Origin: a virus
Lineage: Duplodnaviria > Heunggongvirae > Uroviricota > Caudoviricetes
Reading direction: 5' to 3' (one strand)
IMG/VR virus record: IMGVR_UViG_2541047870_000003
Length of the DNA: 40,696 nt
This document shows positions 1,532 through 21,588 of this stretch, piece after piece. The notes under the pieces are model-generated. The model did not search any database. It was not told the DNA's origin and was given only the letters and a program-made list of their open reading frames with translations. The position numbers were made by a program, and so were the translations under genes. The stretch's first letter is position 1, and each line of letters starts with the position of its first letter.

Positions 1532-1741
1532 TTAATTTGAATACAATGCAATTCTCGAGGACTGAAGTTTCTCGCAATTAAAATTTATCAGTTTTACTTT
1601 CTGCTCTCTGGAAACGCCTGCTTCTTTTTTACCTGAGAGCATTTTTTCGCATTCTGATTTCGTTAGTTTAGATTTTGAATATCTTGTCCAGTTAGTAGGA
1701 GTGCCACCTTCCTTTTCAATAGTGGCGGTAATTTTATACAT
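1532..1741 (-). CDS. ydaC: Small Rac-type early protein (YdaC-like), about 69 aa from MYKITATIEKEGG
   Basis: ORF in track (1532-1813); internal start chosen to avoid long overlap with next gene; recalled similarity to Rac YdaC. Function unknown. Confidence 0.55.
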   Translation of the reverse strand: MYKITATIEKEGGTPTNWTRYSKSKLTKSECEKMLSGKKEAGVSREQKVKLINFNCEKLQSSRIALYSN

Positions 1742-1928
1742 GAACACCTCCATTATTATTTCCAGTGGTTCGTTTATTCCATCTTTCGAGTGCTTCTTTT
1801 TCACTTCCACCATAACCGGTTCGGGATTCGCATCCGTTACACTTCGCTCGGTAATATCCTGAAATGGCTTTCACCGTTACTGATGGACAACCACAAAATG
1901 GACATGGTTTAACATTGTCATATCTCAT
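1734..1928 (-). CDS. ralR: Restriction alleviation protein Lar/RalR-like, 64 aa from MRYDNVKPCPFCG; Cys-rich zinc-finger-like CPFCGC...CNGC
   Basis: Translation contains two CxxC pairs; matches my memory of Rac RalR (Lar). Start at internal Met of track ORF 1734-1967. Confidence 0.7.
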   Translation of the reverse strand: MRYDNVKPCPFCGCPSVTVKAISGYYRAKCNGCESRTGYGGSEKEALERWNKRTTGNNNGGVHV

Positions 1929-11952: not shown

Positions 11953-12112
11953 GCCAAATTAATAATCGGAACTTGGTGAAGTGAAAGAGAAAACATAATC
12001 CAAATCTGAATAATTAAATTCAGCACTGTGAATAAAATAGAGTCCTTAACCGGAGGAATTCCTGCACTCTCAAATCATCAGGAGGCCGCCCGAAAAGGCG
12101 GTGGAGATAATA

Positions 12113-12631
12113 ATGGAAATAACTAAAGAACGATTATTGGAAATAGCAAGTCTTAGTGATGGGGCATTAAGTGATGGGAGAATTATTTCTCCTGATGCTT
12201 ATGAATCAGTTACAAGTATAGAAATAATAACGATGGCTAGGATGCTTCTTGCGCGCTTCAAAAAAGAATATAAAAAACAGGTAGATAGCAATGCTAATAT
12301 ATATGATATTTTGGACGGTTGGGGAGCCTGGGCTGTAGCTGAAAATAGTTCTATTGATTGGCAGGAAATAGCTGATAAATATAAAAATGTTGTTCCTCAT
12401 GGTAAAAAATCACGTCGTCAGTGCAGCAATGATGAAGGGGGTATAATTGATACCTGCATGCTGAGGCTTAAACAATATAGGATAGATGACTATGAGTTAA
12501 TTATCGCTCATTTTGTTATGGGAGTTTCATTGCGTTGTTTAGCTAAGATAAACGAATGTTCAGATGGTAAAATAAGGAAAAAAATGCAAATGGCAATGGG
12601 ATTTATTGCAGGTTGTATCTATTACCGTTGA
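12113..12631 (+). CDS. Q82/QuuD-type antitermination protein Q homologue with about 60-aa N-terminal extension, in accessory island
   Basis: C-terminal half shares the pattern I recall from DLP12 QuuD (GAWA, SRxQC, DD, CMxRLK, CSDGxIxK, GFIxG). Start 12113 chosen for GGAG spacing; track ORF starts at GTG 12101. Memory-based. Confidence 0.55.
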   Translation: MEITKERLLEIASLSDGALSDGRIISPDAYESVTSIEIITMARMLLARFKKEYKKQVDSNANIYDILDGWGAWAVAENSSIDWQEIADKYKNVVPHGKKSRRQCSNDEGGIIDTCMLRLKQYRIDDYELIIAHFVMGVSLRCLAKINECSDGKIRKKMQMAMGFIAGCIYYR

Positions 12632-12661: not shown

Positions 12662-14095
12662 TTAACTACAGTAACTATTGATTAAGTGAGAACTGAGCCA
12701 AGAGGTAATTGCATTCGTAGCATGTTCATCAAGCATTGAGAATCCTAATATGATCATTATAAATGAAATCAGCAAAGTCAGAATCACAACGAATGTGGCT
12801 ATAATCTGATAAGCTTTGTATGCCTCTCTTAATGGTGTGACTGCAAGATTCTCATAGTCAGTATCATCAAGAAAACCATATAGTTTATCTCTCCAGACTA
12901 GCCTAGTATTATCAAGTATCTTAAAGTAATTTTTATTTATGAAGAGAGTTGTAACCTGAGATATAAAAATATATATAGATAACGCGAAGAACATATATGG
13001 GAATATGTTATTGGTTATATTAATCTTTGATGCGTCTAGCGCATATTTTATTGCAAATAGACTTATAACCAGAGCCAGATCTTTCCAAAGAGCGGATGTG
13101 ATGTCTTTAGACTGACTTATTATTTTTTGCGTGTCTTCAGCTAAGGTTTTCCTTAGATCGGACAGAGATTTAATAGTCTCTCTGCTGCTAGCGCGAATGT
13201 GGGCCTTATATAGTAATTTTGCTGACTCAAAGGCCATAGGGAGTTTTTTTGGTAAACCCTCACAGAAGGATACATACTCTGGCCATTCTCGTGCTAACTC
13301 ACTTGTGAAGAAAGTATGTTTGAGTTCAATCTCATTGCCCTCAATAAAGATCCAGTTTATTACAGTTTGTAAAACTGAATAGTCGGAAAGCAGAATGTCT
13401 GGATCTCCATAAATTAATTTTTTTGGTGGCTTTCCAGTTAAACAAATTGATTTCTTTTCATCTGCTAATAATTCATTAACGAGAGTGCGACAAAGCATAT
13501 TGCAGGAAACTTGTAACCATTTTTTGAAAAAGTTGTCCTCTTCCTCAGGCATTTTATAAAGTACCCAAGGAGCTATATCAGATGCAGGCATGAACTCACT
13601 AGAATAGAATTTAACGTAGCTCTGTAAATTGATTGAAGTTCGTACGGTTTCATTAGGTTCAATTTTTTCTGGAGCATGGTTCCATGGCTCAACAGAATAT
13701 CCTAAAGTTTCAAATCCATGTTTCAAACCGAGAATATTCACTTTATTGGTTATTGATACTAAATCATCATTGTGTAGAAAAACATTCCACCCTTCGAGCG
13801 TAAAAATATACCTGTTATTTTCGAATGCAATGCATTTTAGCGTAATGTTAAGTTTATCACCTTCACTGCATGACGATGGTTTTACTTCATCATTACAGTC
13901 ATCTTTAACAGTAATTTCAATCCAATTTGGTACGTTTTCGTAAACGTACTGCCAAAGAATGAGTGCATCTTTGTCCATTTTGGCAGAAATTAGAACGCGC
14001 GCAGAATCATTTTTTATTGATTCTGATGCCAAAAATTCAGGGTCTTTCCTTGACGCCTGTATAGACTCATCGATTTTTTGAAGTATCGATGTCAT
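12662..14095 (-). CDS. Hypothetical protein, about 477 aa: about 350-aa soluble N-terminal domain plus three predicted C-terminal transmembrane helices; candidate membrane effector
   Basis: Hydrophobic segments LALVISLFAIKYALDAS, IFPYMFFALSIYIFISQVTTLFI, IIATFVVILTLLISFIMIILGF; GAGGA 9 nt upstream of ATG at 14095; 29-nt overlap with upstream gene. Track ORF extends to 14143. Confidence 0.6.
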   Translation of the reverse strand: MTSILQKIDESIQASRKDPEFLASESIKNDSARVLISAKMDKDALILWQYVYENVPNWIEITVKDDCNDEVKPSSCSEGDKLNITLKCIAFENNRYIFTLEGWNVFLHNDDLVSITNKVNILGLKHGFETLGYSVEPWNHAPEKIEPNETVRTSINLQSYVKFYSSEFMPASDIAPWVLYKMPEEEDNFFKKWLQVSCNMLCRTLVNELLADEKKSICLTGKPPKKLIYGDPDILLSDYSVLQTVINWIFIEGNEIELKHTFFTSELAREWPEYVSFCEGLPKKLPMAFESAKLLYKAHIRASSRETIKSLSDLRKTLAEDTQKIISQSKDITSALWKDLALVISLFAIKYALDASKINITNNIFPYMFFALSIYIFISQVTTLFINKNYFKILDNTRLVWRDKLYGFLDDTDYENLAVTPLREAYKAYQIIATFVVILTLLISFIMIILGFSMLDEHATNAITSWLSSHLINSYCS

Positions 14096-15125
14096 CAGTA
14101 ATAATCCTCGCAGTAGTAACAATAATTTGTTTTCGCCCATCATCTAAGTTTCTTATTTCTGGACGGTCATCTTCATTATAACTAATTACTACACTTTCTG
14201 CAGTTTCAATTTTTCGTCTTGGTGGTTTATGAATGCCATCTGCTTTTATAGTAAAGGATTCGCCTTCAATACCAGCATTTTTTGTTTGAGTTTTGAATGT
14301 GTTGAGAATTGGTGATTTTTCATCTAACGGCCCAAAAATGCTGGTCAATAACGGAGAAGCATCTTCAGGATTATATTCGAAATCAGCTCTGCTTAAAACT
14401 TCATATATTTTATTTACGCCGCTTTTTTGAATTGACTCTGGCAATAATTCTTTATGCCTTTTGAAGGTTATTTTCAGCGCATCAATAAGCTTATTGCAAA
14501 GTTCAATTTCAGAGTTGACTCTTTTAACATTTAAGAAGCCTTTAAAATATCCTGAAATATTGGTTCTTTTACTCCTGTCTTTTACAATAACTTTCCCGCC
14601 TTTCCCACTTGGATCAAGTTGAATTAACGCTATTTTTTGCATTGCCTCAGCTTTTTTTACGAAAGTTTCATGAAATCTTTCTAAAGTAGGCATTTGTTCT
14701 TCAGATAACTCTTCGTCAAGAACATAACGAACCACATCTTCATTATCGTATTTTATAATTGCATAGAATTTTTCCTTATCTGAAACCAATTCAAATAAGA
14801 AAAAGCATCCCATACTCGTGTTACCGCTAGAATGGTGTGACTGAAAATCACTGGCCAGTAGCTTCGATTGTTCTGTAAAACAATTAGCTTCAGCATCTGC
14901 TTTATCTCTAATGATACGCAGGATTCTTTCGGTATTTGAATTCTCCAGAAAAGTGAAAAGATTTCCTTTCAGTGAAGATTTGATACGTTCAAGAAAAAAA
15001 TCCACATGCTGAACTGGTTTTATTTCTTTGAGAAGTGTCGGTGCTTCAAGATTCTTACCTACAACGTGAAAGATCATTTTATTAATGACTAAATTTTGTA
15101 CGTCTTGTTCAGAAAGGAAACTCAT
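14067..15125 (-). CDS. Hypothetical soluble protein, 352 aa; weak resemblance to NA37/YejK-type nucleoid-associated proteins; candidate sensor
   Basis: GGAG 5 nt upstream of ATG at 15125; N-terminal INKMIFHVVGK and central GCFFLFELV...FYAIIKY segments resemble YejK as I recall it. Low-certainty, memory-based. Confidence 0.55.
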   Translation of the reverse strand: MSFLSEQDVQNLVINKMIFHVVGKNLEAPTLLKEIKPVQHVDFFLERIKSSLKGNLFTFLENSNTERILRIIRDKADAEANCFTEQSKLLASDFQSHHSSGNTSMGCFFLFELVSDKEKFYAIIKYDNEDVVRYVLDEELSEEQMPTLERFHETFVKKAEAMQKIALIQLDPSGKGGKVIVKDRSKRTNISGYFKGFLNVKRVNSEIELCNKLIDALKITFKRHKELLPESIQKSGVNKIYEVLSRADFEYNPEDASPLLTSIFGPLDEKSPILNTFKTQTKNAGIEGESFTIKADGIHKPPRRKIETAESVVISYNEDDRPEIRNLDDGRKQIIVTTARIITDDIDTSKNR

Positions 15126-15195: not shown

Positions 15196-15454
15196 AAGTT
15201 CTTAAACTCAAAATGTTATCGCGGATAGATCTTTGTAGAGTCAGTGATTGGCGCAGGTAGGTGGTAACAGCAGACAAATAGCTGCGGATACTTGAGGCTA
15301 TCTGCCTCGGGCATGAACATCAAAGGCAGATAGAGAAAAGCCCCAGTTAACATTACGCATCCGGCAAGACGCTTAACATTAATCTGAGGCCAATTTCATG
15401 CTTTGCACATGTAGGTTAGCCTCTTACGTGCCGAAAGGCAAGGAGAAGCAGGCT

Positions 15455-15610
15455 ATGAAGCAGCAAAAGGCGATGTTAGTCGCCCTGATCGTCATCTGTT
15501 TAACCGTTATAGTGACGGTACTGGTAACGAGGAAAGACCTCTGCGAGGTACGAATCCGAACCGACCAGACGGAGGTCGCTGTCTTCACAGCTTACGAACT
15601 TGGGGAGTAA
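15455..15610 (+). CDS. hok: Hok-family type I toxin, 51 aa (MKQQKAMLVALIVICLTVIVTVLVTRKDLCEVRIRTDQTEVAVFTAYELGE)
   Basis: Near-identical to Hok/RelF-family sequences as I recall them; single TM helix; in-frame upstream extension (from 15398) resembles a mok-like leader; 10-bp inverted repeat at 15298-15341 upstream. Confidence 0.8.
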   Translation: MKQQKAMLVALIVICLTVIVTVLVTRKDLCEVRIRTDQTEVAVFTAYELGE

Positions 15611-16072
15611 GAGGACCGGCGGGGAGAAATCCCCGCAACCTCTGATGTATTATGCATCCTCAACGCAGCCACAGTTAACCTGATTGGCGGGTTTATTTCA
15701 TCTGTAAATATATTTATAAAAATAATGCCCACGCACAGCATAAAACAAAAAGTATTACAGATAAAAAAGGAACGTAATGTGCAGATTTGTTGTTTTCCAT
15801 ATTTACTCACCTTAATATGATTAACCCTGATAGGGTTGTTATTTCAGCGGTTTTCAAATGAGATATTATGGTGATCTGGCAGATTTGCATAACATTAAAA
15901 TTTAATTTGTTTAACCGCTTTTAATAATAAGCGTTGTTTGTATCCCAGCAATCTGTTGTTTGGTTTTTATTCCATTAAGGTGGGGCTTTACACTGGAGCC
16001 AGTTTATTTATACTTCATACGTCAGCCTGAACAACTGGCATCTGCTGCGCTGCGCCATCGAGAGATTAAGAA

Positions 16073-16672
16073 ATGGCGCATATACAACTGGTCAAACAAA
16101 CCTCTTCCGGATTACTTCTCCCGGCGACGCCGGAGAGTTGTGATTTTCTGCATCAAATCAAAATAGGCGAGTGGATACACGCAGACTTTAAGCGTGTGCG
16201 TAACTACGCATTCCACAAGCGTTTTTTCAAACTCCTGCAACTGGGATTCGATTACTGGACTCCGGTCGGTGGGGCGATCACGCCACGCGAACGAGAACTG
16301 CTGTCTGGTTTCGTTGATTACCTGTGCGAATCAGTTGGTCGGGAACACACGCCAGCCCTGAGTGAGGCCGCAGAGCAATATCTGAATACAGTTGCGACAC
16401 GCAGAACCCGGGATACGGCATTGCTAAAGTCGTTTGAGGCTTTTCGCGAGTGGGTAACCATTCAGGCTGGATTTTACACCGAACATTTTTATCCGGACGG
16501 TAGCCATGGGCGTCGGGCGAAATCCATCGCTTTTGCGAATATGGATGAAACCGAGTTTCAGCAGGTTTATAAATCTGTTCTGAATGTGCTGTGGAACTGG
16601 ATTCTGTTCCGTAAATTTTCCTCTCCGGAACAAGTCGAAAATGTGGCCGCGCAGCTGCTGGAGTTTGCGTAA
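16073..16672 (+). CDS. DUF1367 family protein (DLP12 YbcN-like), nin-region gene, 199 aa
   Basis: Recalled similarity to YbcN; position upstream of YbcO-like gene and Q. Confidence 0.6.
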   Translation: MAHIQLVKQTSSGLLLPATPESCDFLHQIKIGEWIHADFKRVRNYAFHKRFFKLLQLGFDYWTPVGGAITPRERELLSGFVDYLCESVGREHTPALSEAAEQYLNTVATRRTRDTALLKSFEAFREWVTIQAGFYTEHFYPDGSHGRRAKSIAFANMDETEFQQVYKSVLNVLWNWILFRKFSSPEQVENVAAQLLEFA

Positions 16673-16962
16673 TGGTGGATTTACGTAAAGCGGCGCGGGG
16701 GCAGATGTGCGCCGTCAGAATTCCTGGCTACTGCAATCACGATCCGGAAACGTCTGTGCTGGCGCATTACCGACTGGCGGGAACGTGCGGAACAGCGACA
16801 AAACCACACGATATGCAGGCGGCGATTGCCTGTAGCTCATGCCACGATCTAATCGACGGGCGGGTAAAAACCAGCGATTACACCAAAGAAGAATTACGCC
16901 TGATGCATGCAGAAGGTGTTTTTCGCACACAAGAAATCTGGAGAAAGGAGGGATATTTGTGA
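16672..16962 (+). CDS. DUF1364 family protein (YbcO-like), 96 aa, Cys/His-rich
   Basis: CxxH/CxxC-type motifs (CSSCHDL, CNHD); ATGG start overlaps upstream stop; recalled similarity to YbcO. Confidence 0.65.
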   Translation: MVDLRKAARGQMCAVRIPGYCNHDPETSVLAHYRLAGTCGTATKPHDMQAAIACSSCHDLIDGRVKTSDYTKEELRLMHAEGVFRTQEIWRKEGYL

Positions 16963-17501
16963 TTTACCCAACGAATACAGGAAAAAGCGGAGAACACCTT
17001 CGTCTCGCCACGCTGGAAAGTGTCTGGATTCAGGGCAAACTGCGTATGTGGGGGCGCTGGTCGTATATTGGCGGTGGCAGGTCAGGAAATATGTTCAATC
17101 AGTTGTTGGCATCCAAAAAATTGACGAAAACAGCCATCAATGAAGCCCTGCGCAGAATGAAAAAAGCGGGAATAGAGAAAGCTGAGCTGGAAGCGTTTTT
17201 GCGAGAGATGATCAACGGCAAGCAAAAGAGCTGGCTGGCGCATTGTACTGATGCAGAGGCGTTATGTATTGATCGAGTCATAAGTGAGGTGCTGGCAGAG
17301 CATCCAGGATTGATTAGCGTCCTTCGGCAACGGTATGAGGGGCGGGGGATGACCAAACGCAAAATGGCTGAATTGCTAAATGATGCACACCCAGAGTGGT
17401 GTTTTAGCACATGCGAAAAGCGAATTGCTAATTGGTTGGCCGTTGCTGAGTATGCGCTATACATTCCCATGCGAGAATCATTCGCTCAAAAAACGGCTTG
17501 A
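16959..17501 (+). CDS. Putative late antiterminator Q (positional call), 180 aa from GTG
   Basis: GGAGGG 6 nt upstream of GTG 16959, overlapping upstream stop; last gene before the AT-rich late-promoter region, tRNAs and lysis cassette. Family not recognised with certainty. Confidence 0.5.
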   Translation: MIYPTNTGKSGEHLRLATLESVWIQGKLRMWGRWSYIGGGRSGNMFNQLLASKKLTKTAINEALRRMKKAGIEKAELEAFLREMINGKQKSWLAHCTDAEALCIDRVISEVLAEHPGLISVLRQRYEGRGMTKRKMAELLNDAHPEWCFSTCEKRIANWLAVAEYALYIPMRESFAQKTA

Positions 17502-17918: not shown

Positions 17919-17994
<76 letters not shown>

Positions 17995-17997
17995 TAT

Positions 17998-18072
<75 letters not shown>

Positions 18073-19993: not shown

Positions 19994-20130
19994 AATCTTA
20001 ACTACAATATGATTCATTTTGATGATTGTTTCATAAGGAACAGTGAAGTAAGATCTAAGAGGAGTTAAATTTTATACAGTATAATCATAATATTGCAGCA
20101 AGGTGGTTATAATTGAAAGAATATTTAGAT

Positions 20131-21588
20131 ATGAATACATCTCATGTAAGAGTTGTTACTCATATGTGTGGGTTCCTGGTTTGGCTCTATAGTCTTTCAA
20201 TGTTGCCACCAATGGTTGTAGCATTGTTTTATAAAGAAAAAAGCCTGTTCGTTTTCTTTATAACTTTCGTTATATTTTTTTGTATTGGTGGCGGAGCGTG
20301 GTATACAACTAAGAAATCTGGCATTCAATTACGTACCCGTGATGGGTTTATTATAATTGTAATGTTTTGGATTTTGTTTTCTGTTATTAGTGCATTCCCT
20401 TTATGGATTGACTCAGAACTTAATTTAACGTTCATTGATGCTCTGTTTGAAGGGGTTTCTGGAATAACAACAACAGGAGCAACTGTAATTGATGATGTTA
20501 GTTCATTACCTCGGGCATATTTGTACTATCGGTCACAGTTAAATTTTATAGGTGGTTTAGGAGTTATTGTTCTGGCGGTTGCTGTATTGCCATTATTGGG
20601 TATTGGTGGTGCAAAGCTTTATCAGTCAGAAATGCCGGGGCCATTTAAGGATGACAAACTCACTCCCCGCCTGGCCGATACGTCACGGACACTGTGGATA
20701 ACTTATTCTTTATTAGGTATTGCTTGTATTGTCTGTTATAGACTTGCAGGAATGCCTTTGTTTGATGCTATTTGTCACGGGATTTCCACAGTTTCGCTTG
20801 GTGGTTTCTCAACTCATAGCGAGAGTATCGGATATTTTAATAACTATTTGGTTGAGCTGGTGGCTGGTTCTTTTTCCCTGCTATCGGCTTTCAACTTCAC
20901 TCTTTGGTATATTGTTATTAGCAGGAAAACGATAAAACCTTTAATCAGAGATATTGAACTTCGTTTCTTTCTGTTAATAGCCTTAGGGGTGATCATTGTT
21001 ACCTCTTTCCAGGTCTGGCATATAGGTATGTATGACTTGCATGGAAGTTTTATTCATTCGTTTTTTCTTGCCAGCTCCATGCTCACTGATAATGGTTTAG
21101 CTACGCAGGATTATGCAAGTTGGCCCACGCACACGATAGTGTTTTTGCTGTTGTCAAGTTTCTTTGGGGGATGTATAGGTTCAACTTGTGGTGGAATTAA
21201 GTCACTTCGATTTCTTATACTTTTCAAACAAAGCAAACACGAGATAAATCAGCTTTCTCATCCCAGAGCGTTGTTGAGTGTAAATGTAGGAGGGAAGATA
21301 GTTACAGATCGTGTAATGAGGTCTGTATGGAGTTTCTTTTTTCTTTATACTCTCTTCACGGTGTTTTTTATACTGGTGTTAAATGGTATGGGATATGATT
21401 TTCTTACATCATTTGCAACAGTGGCTGCATGTATTAATAATATGGGATTAGGTTTTGGGGCTACTGCATCGTCATTCGGAGTGCTTAATGACATTGCAAA
21501 ATGTTTAATGTGCATAGCTATGATTCTTGGTCGCCTTGAAATTTATCCTGTTATTATATTGTTTTCAGGTTTTTTTTGGCGCTCCTAA
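20131..21588 (+). CDS. trkG: TrkG/TrkH-family K+ uptake membrane protein, 485 aa from MNTSHVRVV
   Basis: Polytopic membrane protein; recalled as Rac TrkG; sits in a region that looks AT-rich by eye. Track ORF starts at TTG 20113. Confidence 0.85.
   Translation: MNTSHVRVVTHMCGFLVWLYSLSMLPPMVVALFYKEKSLFVFFITFVIFFCIGGGAWYTTKKSGIQLRTRDGFIIIVMFWILFSVISAFPLWIDSELNLTFIDALFEGVSGITTTGATVIDDVSSLPRAYLYYRSQLNFIGGLGVIVLAVAVLPLLGIGGAKLYQSEMPGPFKDDKLTPRLADTSRTLWITYSLLGIACIVCYRLAGMPLFDAICHGISTVSLGGFSTHSESIGYFNNYLVELVAGSFSLLSAFNFTLWYIVISRKTIKPLIRDIELRFFLLIALGVIIVTSFQVWHIGMYDLHGSFIHSFFLASSMLTDNGLATQDYASWPTHTIVFLLLSSFFGGCIGSTCGGIKSLRFLILFKQSKHEINQLSHPRALLSVNVGGKIVTDRVMRSVWSFFFLYTLFTVFFILVLNGMGYDFLTSFATVAACINNMGLGFGATASSFGVLNDIAKCLMCIAMILGRLEIYPVIILFSGFFWRS

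What the first reader, a model, noticed from the sequence alone, without database searches (positions are those of the whole stretch)
15290..15660. hok-family type I toxin gene with in-frame leader and upstream inverted repeat
The 51-aa ORF is near-identical to Hok/RelF-type toxins as I recall them, with an in-frame upstream extension and a 10-bp perfect inverted repeat (CTATCTGCCT/AGGCAGATAG) at 15298-15341, consistent with hok mRNA fold-back elements. An antisense sok-like RNA is expected but I cannot place it from sequence alone. It sits immediately upstream of the candidate defence operon, so it could stabilise the island or itself act in phage exclusion.
Basis: partly seen in the sequence, partly recalled or inferred. 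Interest (0 to 1): 0.5.

Follow-up and report, generated by a model that had tools for sequence, protein, structure and literature searches.

The report
Prophage hok/mok/sok toxin-antitoxin locus
This is an ordinary, already-catalogued hok/mok/sok type I toxin-antitoxin cassette sitting in a lambdoid (rac-like) E. coli prophage; the only unusual point is that this rare allele has lost the normal hok promoter and carries mutations in the RNA element needed to switch toxin translation on, so the toxin is probably largely silenced.

Summary
A 51-aa Hok ORF (15455-15610), its in-frame 70-aa leader (mok, 15398-15610) and a perfect 10-bp inverted repeat (15298-15307/15324-15333) are all present. Pfam HOK_GEF scores 76.5 bits and the Rfam hok/sok leader model 99.4 bits. 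Hok is 46/51 identical to K-12 HokD (RelF) and 43/51 to HokW.

Identical DNA is annotated "Hok/Gef family protein" in E. coli genomes. The locus is about 90% identical to hokW-sokW of phages 933W/Sp5, which has been tested experimentally.

I placed the missing antisense RNA. Sok runs 15406->15336 on the minus strand, and its promoter (15441-15413) is identical to the validated sokW promoter. Covariation across 25 loci supports the family mRNA fold, including 5'-3' (tac-fbi) end pairing.

The new point is that this allele (about 28 E. coli records) has no TANNNT -10 for hok. It also has two private tac substitutions, and one of them equals the R1 loss-of-function mutation G4A. Autonomous toxin expression is therefore probably attenuated (about 0.6).

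PADLOC does not recognise the neighbouring "defence operon". Already known; low interest.

The parts
15248..15279 (+). Degenerate hok promoter region. The -35-like TTGGCG (15248-15253) is retained, and ACAAAT (15274-15279) occupies the position of the family -10 hexamer, now 20 nt from the -35.
   Evidence: Relatives have TTGGCG-17-TAGAAT or TATAAT ending about 7 nt before the conserved 5' end. The scanner finds that promoter in L008 and L057 but finds nothing upstream of hok in the window. By direct reading, no NANNNT hexamer exists in 15253-15289.
15286..15700 (+). Predicted full-length mok-hok mRNA, about 415 nt. The 5' end is inferred from the family consensus and the start of the Rfam model, not mapped experimentally.
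   Evidence: The Rfam RF01794 match starts at 15286. Homology with relatives spans about 15277-15694. MFE is -145.7 kcal/mol, z = -4.0, with 5'-3' end pairing. Covariation was tested on 25 loci.
15286..15297 (+). tac (translational activator) element, GGATACTTGAGG. It differs from the otherwise invariant GGGTGCTTGAGG at 15288 and 15290 (both G->A).
   Evidence: Alignments. The variant is private to about 28 E. coli records. G15290A corresponds to R1 hok G4A, a loss-of-function mutation.
15298..15333 (+). 5' hairpin of the hok mRNA.
   Evidence: The helix is 94.8% paired across 25 loci and 2 of its pairs show compensatory changes.
15338..15344 (+). ucb / anti-SD box (AAGCCCC). It pairs with the mok SD in the closed form and with tac in the open form.
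   Evidence: The Rfam consensus structure pairs it with tac. In the full-length MFE it pairs with GAGGC at 15386-15390. The box is invariant in relatives.
15336..15406 (-). Predicted Sok antisense RNA (about 71 nt). It has a 15-nt single-stranded 5' tail complementary to the mok start codon and upstream spacer (the adjoining stem covers the mok SD), then a long terminator hairpin and a U-tract.
   Evidence: Coordinates were transferred from the sokW misc_RNA annotation of 933W. The fold gives -26.8 kcal/mol.
15413..15441 (-). Sok promoter: -35 TTGCCT (15441-15436), 17-nt spacer, -10 TAACCT (15418-15413).
   Evidence: Read directly from the sequence. Window 15407-15445 is identical to the 933W locus, which equals VT2-Sakai/Sp5, and the sokW promoter there was validated by -10 mutations. 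The simple consensus scanner does not score it.
15398..15610 (+). mok, the 70-aa leader ORF in frame with hok. Its SD is GAGG at 15386-15389.
   Evidence: It aligns with the annotated mokW. The ATG and SD are conserved across relatives.
15455..15610 (+). hok, the 51-aa membrane toxin ORF. Its SD is AAGGAG at 15440-15445.
   Evidence: Pfam HOK_GEF 76.5 bits. PHROG 251 'MokW-like host killing' at 104.8 bits. RefSeq annotates it as Hok/Gef family protein WP_197731663.1.
15619..15636 (+). Hairpin just after the stop codon (7 bp, GAAA loop). Positions 15622-15633 are the IS421 target site in sister copies of this allele.
   Evidence: MFE. The helix is 95.9% paired with 3 compensatory pairs. IS421 with a 12-bp duplication is seen in L004.
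15658..15670 (+). fbi (fold-back inhibitory) element, CCTCAACGCAGCC. It pairs with tac in the full-length mRNA and carries C15668G relative to the consensus GCACCC.
   Evidence: tac-fbi helix is 97% paired across 25 loci, with a G-C->A-U double change in Kluyvera. The window duplex is -9.3 kcal/mol against -18 to -25 in 20 relatives. C15668G is shared with the 95.5% alleles.
15677..15700 (+). Weak intrinsic-terminator-like hairpin and T-rich tail; the likely 3' end of the hok mRNA.
   Evidence: Relatives have a stronger terminator at the same place.

Best explanation
The region is a complete hok/mok/sok type I toxin-antitoxin cassette of the hokD/hokW lineage, carried in the early-right (nin/Q) region of a rac-like lambdoid prophage. 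I put that identification at about 0.97.

By analogy with the R1 paradigm, the mechanism is as follows. These steps are inferred from homology and structure, not shown here.
1. A stable full-length mok-hok mRNA (about 15286-15700) is held closed by pairing of its 5' tac (15286-15297) with its 3' fbi (15658-15670). In this form ucb (15338-15344) sequesters the mok SD.
2. Slow 3' trimming removes fbi. Tac then pairs with ucb, which exposes the mok SD and the Sok target.
3. Hok translation is coupled to mok translation.
4. The unstable antisense Sok RNA (15406->15336, with its own promoter at 15441-15413) binds the mok translation initiation region and triggers RNase III decay.
5. If Sok synthesis stops (element loss, host transcription shut-off, or prophage induction), Hok is made and depolarises the inner membrane.

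There is one allele-specific qualification, which I put at about 0.6. This copy has lost the canonical hok -10 hexamer and carries two G->A changes in tac that weaken both tac-fbi and tac-ucb pairing. Autonomous hok expression is therefore probably strongly reduced, while Sok, mok and the Hok ORF remain intact. Any remaining hok transcription would most plausibly come from rightward phage early (PR-type) read-through during induction.
For: Identity of the locus:
- Pfam HOK_GEF 76.5 bits.
- Rfam RF01794 99.4 bits over 15286-15460.
- PHROG 'MokW-like host killing'.
- 100% identical DNA annotated as Hok/Gef family protein.
- About 90% nucleotide identity to annotated hokW/mokW/sokW.
- HokW toxicity, and its neutralisation by sokW from its own promoter, shown experimentally (PMC8621323).

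Structure:
- On 25 loci, 88.3% of cells are paired against about 40% when partners are slid. 27 pairs have double changes, reached by 0 of 500 shuffles.
- tac-fbi is 97% paired, with one compensatory pair.
- The window's full-length MFE keeps end pairing and ucb-SD pairing.

Sok:
- Coordinates are transferred from the 933W annotation, and the fold has the classic shape.
- The promoter is identical to that of Sp5 sokW.

Attenuation:
- Every relative has a TANNNT -10 and the window has none.
- In R1, single changes at T-12, A-11 or T-7 abolish hok transcription or toxicity. G4A in tac drastically lowers Hok (PMC9841398).
- Window A15290 maps to R1 G4.
- tac-fbi is -9.3 kcal/mol against -18 to -25 in relatives. 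The 5' hairpin is -19.6 against -22.6 to -32.
- The window has the lowest Rfam score among hokD/W/C-type relatives, 99.4 against 105-122.
- The variant is confined to about 28 records of one prophage lineage.
Against: - No expression data exist for this allele. The transcription start, Sok expression and Hok toxicity are all inferred.
- Mapping R1 mutational results onto a lineage with only about 44% Hok identity is an extrapolation. Only one of the two tac changes has a tested R1 equivalent.
- The Hok, mok and Sok sequences are all intact, which is not what long-term decay would produce. The allele may simply be young.
- An unconventional promoter cannot be excluded. A start upstream of 15281 would restore a -16.9 kcal/mol end pairing through GCUGCG/CGCAGC.
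- The ensemble prediction of the processed mRNA did not separate the window from the functional relatives.
Confidence: 0.85

Rival explanations
1. The locus is a fully active hok/sok module. Its promoter and tac differences are tolerated, and it works, either stabilising the prophage (killing cells that lose it) or causing abortive infection when a lytic phage shuts off host transcription.
For: All coding and antisense parts are intact. End pairing and SD sequestration are still predicted. Sister alleles 95.5% identical, with the same fbi variant, keep a normal promoter and tac. From my own knowledge, R1 hok/sok has been reported to exclude T4 (Pecota & Wood 1996); that paper was not retrieved here.
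Against: There is no TANNNT -10 upstream of the conserved start. The tac change is equivalent to R1 G4A, which abolishes toxicity. tac-fbi stability is roughly halved. hok is not enriched near defence systems, and PADLOC does not recognise the neighbours.
Confidence: 0.3
2. Hok here is an induction-coupled lysis helper. Lacking its own promoter, hok is transcribed mainly by antiterminated rightward early transcription after prophage induction, and it assists lysis and phage release as reported for hokW-sokW in Sp5.
For: hok has the same orientation as the replication and Q genes flanking it. Mitomycin C reduces sokW RNA and raises HokW in a RecA-dependent way, and phage release halves without hokW-sokW (PMC8621323 abstract).
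Against: A 5'-extended read-through transcript would not have tac at its 5' end, and the tac mutations should still hinder translation. Two convergent minus-strand genes lie between the upstream plus-strand genes and hok. No data exist for this prophage. In Sp5 the locus sits elsewhere in the phage genome.
Confidence: 0.25
3. The cassette now works mainly through its antitoxin. With hok disarmed, the intact Sok RNA acts as an anti-addiction or cross-immunity factor against related hok loci on incoming plasmids or other prophages.
For: The Sok promoter and RNA are intact while hok control elements are damaged. The window's Sok target sequence around the mok start is identical to that of another chromosomal locus type, L019. 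E. coli genomes carry a median of 2 related places.
Against: In the R1 study, none of the five chromosomal Sok RNAs could inhibit R1 hok, so cross-talk is generally poor. There is no direct evidence. The intact hok ORF is not explained.
Confidence: 0.08
4. The ORF and the repeat are chance features with no gene function.
For: Short ORFs and 10-nt inverted repeats do occur by chance; the window has 12 such repeats.
Against: There are strong profile hits for both protein and RNA. Thousands of conserved homologues exist. Covariation supports the fold.
Confidence: 0.01

Closest known systems
hokW-mokW-sokW of Stx2 phages 933W / Sakai prophage Sp5
   Same: Prophage-borne. Same 70-aa mok in frame with a 51-aa hok. 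About 90% nucleotide identity over 15277-15670. Identical Sok promoter and hok SD region. Same tac/ucb/fbi layout.
   Different: Hok is 43/51 identical. The Sok 5' tail and mok start region differ at about 10 positions. 933W has a TAGAAT -10, GGGTGC tac and GCACCC fbi, where the window has ACAAAT, GGATAC and GCAGCC. In 933W the locus lies near the right end of the phage genome, whereas here it lies between the replication/nin genes and Q.
hokD (relF) of the K-12 Qin cryptic prophage
   Same: Closest named protein, 46/51 identical. Same downstream neighbourhood type (DUF1367/ydfU family, Q region). RefSeq names the 95.5% alleles hokD.
   Different: K-12 hokD has lost the whole leader. Homology starts only at window 15441, relBE lies upstream, and there is no Rfam sok hit. 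The window keeps mok, Sok, tac and ucb.
hok/sok (parB) of plasmid R1
   Same: Same element order: -10, tac, 5' hairpin, ucb, Sok target, mok in frame with hok, fbi, terminator. Shared motifs are CTTGAGGCT, AGCCCC, TAGCCTCTTAC and CAAGGAGAAG. Both match Rfam RF01794.
   Different: The toxin differs in sequence (HokW is 44% identical to R1 Hok per PMC8621323). R1 is plasmid-borne. The R1 5' end is one nucleotide shorter. R1 has an intact TATGAT -10.
hokC/gef-mokC and other chromosomal hok loci
   Same: About 75% nucleotide identity, with the same architecture and the same invariant tac and fbi boxes.
   Different: hokC has a shorter Sok-target hairpin (18-nt deletion) and a 50-aa toxin, and it sits in the core chromosome between nhaA and dnaJ.

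Membership tests
Hok/Gef toxin family (Pfam PF01848) | Profile match above the curated threshold | tested here: met
   76.5 bits against a cut-off of 22, covering profile positions 1-42 of 42. PHROG 251 scores 104.8 bits.
Hok/Gef toxin family (Pfam PF01848) | Peptide of about 50 aa with an N-terminal hydrophobic helix and the conserved R-K-x-L-C-E motif | tested here: met
   Read directly from the sequence. Residues 6-24 (AMLVALIVICLTVIVTVLV) are hydrophobic. RKDLCEV at 26-32 aligns with RKSLCEI of R1 Hok and RKDLCEV of HokD, HokW and HokC.
Hok/Gef toxin family (Pfam PF01848) | Kills or arrests cells when expressed | not testable with these tools
   Shown for HokW (43/51 identical) in PMC8621323, but not for this peptide.
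NCBIfam HokA equivalog (NF007290) / PRK09738 Hok subfamily (NF007279) | Score above the curated cut-off | tested here: not met
   39.9 against 89, and 44.8 against 73. It is therefore not HokA and not in that subfamily, which is consistent with hokD/hokW-lineage membership.
hok/sok-type regulated locus (R1 parB paradigm) | Match to the Rfam RF01794 hok/sok leader model | tested here: met
   99.4 bits against a gathering score of 59, full-length model, on the hok-sense strand. Relatives score 87-122.
hok/sok-type regulated locus (R1 parB paradigm) | Overlapping mok leader ORF with its own SD, through which hok translation is coupled | tested here: met
   The 70-aa in-frame ORF at 15398-15610 has GAGG 8 nt upstream of its ATG. 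It matches the mokW annotation, and the ATG and SD are conserved in relatives. The coupling itself was not tested.
hok/sok-type regulated locus (R1 parB paradigm) | Cis-encoded antisense Sok RNA with its own promoter, a single-stranded 5' tail over the mok initiation region, and a terminator hairpin | tested here: met
   15406->15336. Promoter is TTGCCT-17-TAACCT, identical to the validated sokW promoter. The fold is a 15-nt tail plus a hairpin plus a U-tract. Expression was not testable.
hok/sok-type regulated locus (R1 parB paradigm) | tac-fbi 5'-3' end pairing that closes the full-length mRNA | tested here: inconclusive
   Both boxes are present and still pair in the MFE, with 8 of 12 pairs. 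There are two mismatches, and the energy is -9.3 kcal/mol against -18 to -25 in 20 relatives. The helix is strongly supported family-wide.
hok/sok-type regulated locus (R1 parB paradigm) | tac-ucb pairing that opens the processed mRNA | tested here: inconclusive
   ucb (AAGCCCC) is intact. Five of 7 pairs remain, and A15288 and A15290 face C. The equivalent R1 G4A abolishes toxicity. The ensemble prediction was not discriminating.
hok/sok-type regulated locus (R1 parB paradigm) | Own constitutive sigma-70 hok promoter about 7 nt upstream of tac | tested here: not met
   There is no TANNNT hexamer in 15253-15289, and the scanner finds none. It does find TTGGCG-17-TAGAAT in L008 and L057.
K-12-type hokD (relBE-hokD operon remnant) | hok ORF directly downstream of relBE, without mok, Sok or tac leader | tested here: not met
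   The window has the full leader. K-12 homology starts only at 15441, and K-12 gives no Rfam hit.

The most novel reading that the evidence does not exclude
A naturally 'disarmed' hok cassette. The toxin's promoter and translational activator are knocked out but Sok is kept. This leaves two possible roles. (a) Hok is made only from phage read-through transcription after induction, as a lysis helper. (b) The locus persists mainly as a source of Sok that gives cross-immunity against related hok loci.
Probability: 0.12. Interest if true: 0.4.

Novelty: already known. Interest (0 to 1): 0.12.

Why it matters
It matters little beyond correct annotation. hok/sok loci are among the best-studied type I toxin-antitoxin systems. 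They are present in most E. coli genomes (4,722 of 5,426 here) and are known to be enriched in prophages.

What this analysis adds:
- The RefSeq records inspected annotate only the Hok ORF. mok, Sok and the RNA control elements can be added at exact coordinates.
- This rare allele offers a natural example of promoter and tac lesions matching laboratory suppressor mutations of R1 hok. That could be used to test how chromosomal and prophage hok copies become silenced.
- Its position next to an uncharacterised two-gene operon should not be read as evidence that the operon is a defence system.

Tried and rejected
1. Partition-function folding of the 3'-processed mRNA, asking whether tac-ucb forms and the mok SD opens. 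The prediction failed to show the open form even for the experimentally functional 933W/Sp5 locus, so it cannot discriminate and was dropped.

2. An alternative end-pairing register. C15668G creates CGCAGC, which is complementary to GCTGCG at 15281-15286 (-16.9 kcal/mol). This needs a transcription start upstream of the family +1, and no promoter supports that. C15668G is also shared with alleles that have a normal tac. I keep it only as a caveat.

3. PADLOC, Pfam and PHROGs on the neighbouring minus-strand genes, to test the 'defence operon' context. PADLOC gave no hits. The only results were a weak NA37 nucleoid-associated match and an unknown-function PHROG.

4. NCBIfam Hok models. Scores fell below the curated cut-offs, which says something about the sub-family but not about family membership.

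5. Supplementary files of PMC9841398, sought for the R1 sequence. None were held. The R1-type sequence was taken from an IncFII plasmid instead.

6. The idea that all three tac/fbi changes are private decay in this allele. Rejected for fbi, because the 95.5% alleles share it.

7. Using the Rfam hit to orient Sok. Rejected, because the model matches the hok-sense strand in every locus, including 933W where sokW is annotated on the opposite strand.

Full report
**What is there**

The window is a lambdoid, rac-like E. coli prophage. An integrase lies at the left end and a RalA sRNA at 1557-1735. Replication genes, Q-type antiterminators, two tRNAs, lysis genes, trkG and head/tail genes follow.

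An in-frame ATG at 15398 extends it to 70 aa.

The peptide matches Pfam HOK_GEF at 76.5 bits against a cut-off of 22, and PHROG 251 'MokW-like host killing'. It is 46/51 identical to K-12 HokD/RelF and 43/51 to HokW.

**How it is catalogued elsewhere**

The 521-bp stretch around it is 100% identical in at least 11 complete E. coli genomes, where the ORF is annotated 'Hok/Gef family protein'. Related copies occur in 4,722 of 5,426 genomes, with a median of two per genome.

Among phages, the best-annotated relative is the hokW/mokW/sokW locus of 933W (about 90% identity). There mokW is a 213-bp ORF in frame with hokW, and SokW is annotated as an antisense misc_RNA. The 933W locus is identical to that of VT2-Sakai/Sp5. 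For Sp5, HokW toxicity, its neutralisation by sokW from its own promoter, RNase III/Hfq dependence and a role in phage release after mitomycin C have all been shown (PMC8621323).

R1-type hok also has mok in frame. The 'in-frame leader' is therefore simply mok.

**Placing the antisense RNA**

Transferring the SokW annotation through the alignment gives window 15406->15336 on the minus strand. Upstream on that strand lie TTGCCT (15441-15436), a 17-nt spacer and TAACCT (15418-15413). Window 15407-15445 is base-for-base identical to the Sp5/933W locus, whose sokW -10 was validated by mutation.

The predicted 71-nt RNA has a 15-nt single-stranded 5' tail complementary to the mok start codon and the spacer upstream of it (the adjoining hairpin stem covers the mok SD). 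A long hairpin and a U-tract follow (-26.8 kcal/mol).

The Rfam 'sok' model (RF01794) hits 15286-15460 at 99.4 bits, but on the hok-sense strand. It does the same in all eleven relatives that gave a hit (K-12 hokD gave none). That includes 933W, where sokW is annotated on the other strand. The hit therefore certifies the hok/sok leader, not the orientation of Sok.

**The mRNA architecture**

Homology with 40-odd loci from Escherichia, Shigella, Kluyvera, Citrobacter, Photorhabdus and others begins at about 15277 and ends at about 15670-15694. That delimits a unit of about 415 nt.

The window's 15286-15700 folds with z = -4.0. In that fold the 5' end pairs with 15658-15670, and ucb (15340-15344) pairs with the mok SD region.

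On an alignment of 25 distinct loci (70-92% identical):
- 88.3% of cells in the proposed structure are paired, against 37-45% when partners are slid.
- 27 pairs show changes on both sides, against 15.5 expected, reached by 0 of 500 shuffles.
- The tac-fbi helix is 97% paired and includes a G-C->A-U double change in Kluyvera.

All this matches the published model of tac/fbi closure, ucb sequestration of the mok SD, and 3' processing followed by tac/ucb pairing (summarised in PMC9841398).

**What is unusual about this allele**

Every relative has a good -10 (TAGAAT, TATAAT, TACAAT and similar) ending about 7 nt before an invariant GCGGGTGCTTGAGGC, and an invariant 3' box CCTCAA(C/T)GCACCC.

The window differs in three ways.
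- **The -10 position.** It holds ACAAAT, with the -35 TTGGCG displaced to 20 nt. No NANNNT hexamer exists in 15253-15289 (read directly).
- **Promoter scan.** The consensus scanner finds no plus-strand promoter upstream of hok. It does find TTGGCG-17-TAGAAT at the right place in phage HannyBb and in the closest other allele, L057.
- **The two boxes.** tac reads GGATAC and fbi reads GCAGCC.

The fbi change is shared with the 95.5% alleles L057 and L058, which keep a normal tac and -10, so it is tolerated. The two tac changes and the promoter change are confined to about 28 records, all 100% identical, with no intermediates.

Energetically, tac-fbi falls to -9.3 kcal/mol against -18 to -25 in 20 relatives. 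The 5' tac-ucb/hairpin domain is -19.6 against -22.6 to -32. The Rfam score is the lowest among hokD/W/C-type loci.

In R1 hok, single substitutions at T-12, A-11 or T-7 of the -10 abolish toxicity; loss of transcription was confirmed for T-12C. Any substitution at tac G4, C5 or T6 also abolishes toxicity, and G4A drastically lowers Hok protein (PMC9841398). An R1-type sequence (TATGAT-GTGCCC-GGCGCTTGAGG) shows that window A15290 corresponds to R1 G4.

I therefore judge autonomous hok expression from this allele to be probably attenuated, at about 0.6. The caveats are that this extrapolates from R1, that the ORFs are intact, and that a folding test of the processed mRNA was uninformative.

The allele also looks mosaic. 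Eighteen of the 21 differences from L057 fall in the 5' 135 nt.

**Context and function**

hok points the same way as the flanking early-right genes. A Q-family gene lies at 12101-12631, and DUF1367, YbcO and a DUF1133/Q-like gene lie at 16073-17501. hok is preceded by two convergent minus-strand genes (12662-15125): an NA37-like protein and a 493-aa protein with no hits.

PADLOC recognises neither of those two genes. A recent survey finds hok enriched four-fold in prophages but not near defence systems.

The documented role of the nearest relative is to assist lysis and phage release on induction. If this copy lacks its own promoter, read-through from the phage early operon is the most plausible remaining source of hok mRNA. 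That is inference.

**Verdict**

The locus is a textbook hok/mok/sok cassette of the hokD/hokW lineage, already annotated at the protein level, and I have now mapped its RNA parts. It is already known and of low interest. A small side observation is that this allele looks naturally disarmed.

Noticed in passing
window 15622-15633; L004:3434-4772; L006:953 onward: In at least 10 E. coli records with this same hok allele, homology stops at 15633. In the one record inspected (L004), an IS4-like IS421 sits there with a 12-bp target duplication (15622-15633), inside the hairpin after the stop codon, cutting fbi and the terminator off the mRNA. An IncY plasmid hokD of a different allele has IS421 at the same position, which suggests an insertion hot spot. 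This recalls the IS-disrupted hok loci of K-12.
   Followed up: partly
window 1557-1735 (+): Full-length RalA antitoxin sRNA (Rfam RF02694, 225 bits), presumably with ralR on the opposite strand (an ORF at 1532-1813, minus strand, overlaps the sRNA). This would be a second type I toxin-antitoxin system in the same prophage and marks it as rac-like.
   Followed up: no
window 12662-15125 (-): Two-gene minus-strand operon immediately upstream of hok. One gene is a 352-aa protein with a weak NA37 nucleoid-associated match (48.7 bits). The other is a 493-aa protein with no Pfam, PADLOC or PHROG hit. The operon travels with this hok allele in all identical copies. Function unknown, and it is not recognisable as a known defence system.
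   Followed up: partly
window 12101-12631 and 16839-17501 (+): Two Q-type antiterminator genes in one prophage (PF06530 at 115.8 bits, and a DUF1133 protein with a weak PF06530 match). They bracket the minus-strand operon and hok, which suggests a mosaic junction or a cargo hot spot between them.
   Followed up: no
window 15277-15411 versus 15412-15700: The allele is mosaic. Against its closest relative (L057, 95.5%), 18 of 21 differences lie in the 5' 135 nt and only 3 in the 3' 289 nt. The mok-start/Sok-tail segment is identical to a different locus type (L019).
   Followed up: partly
window 15286-15460; L001:1510-1684: Rfam RF01794 'sok antitoxin' matches the hok-sense strand in every locus tested, including 933W where sokW is annotated on the opposite strand. 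The model in effect describes the hok mRNA leader, so its strand should not be used to orient Sok.
   Followed up: yes
L027, L030, L055, L056: Near-identical hok fragments (91-95%) sit on very short contigs (275-431 bp) in assemblies labelled Acinetobacter idrijaensis and Xanthomonas pisi, and on a 3-kb MAG contig; L056 (Phycisphaerae MAG) is only a weak 38% match. These are most likely enterobacterial contamination or mis-binning rather than true hosts.
   Followed up: no
window 17919-18069 (+) and about 20113-21588 (+): Two tRNA genes lie downstream of the Q-like gene; they are annotated tRNA-Thr and tRNA-Gly in the identical Ecol_316 record. That record also annotates a trkG potassium transporter gene after the lysis cassette (window position estimated from locus offsets, not checked directly). 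Both are typical cargo of rac-type prophages.
   Followed up: no
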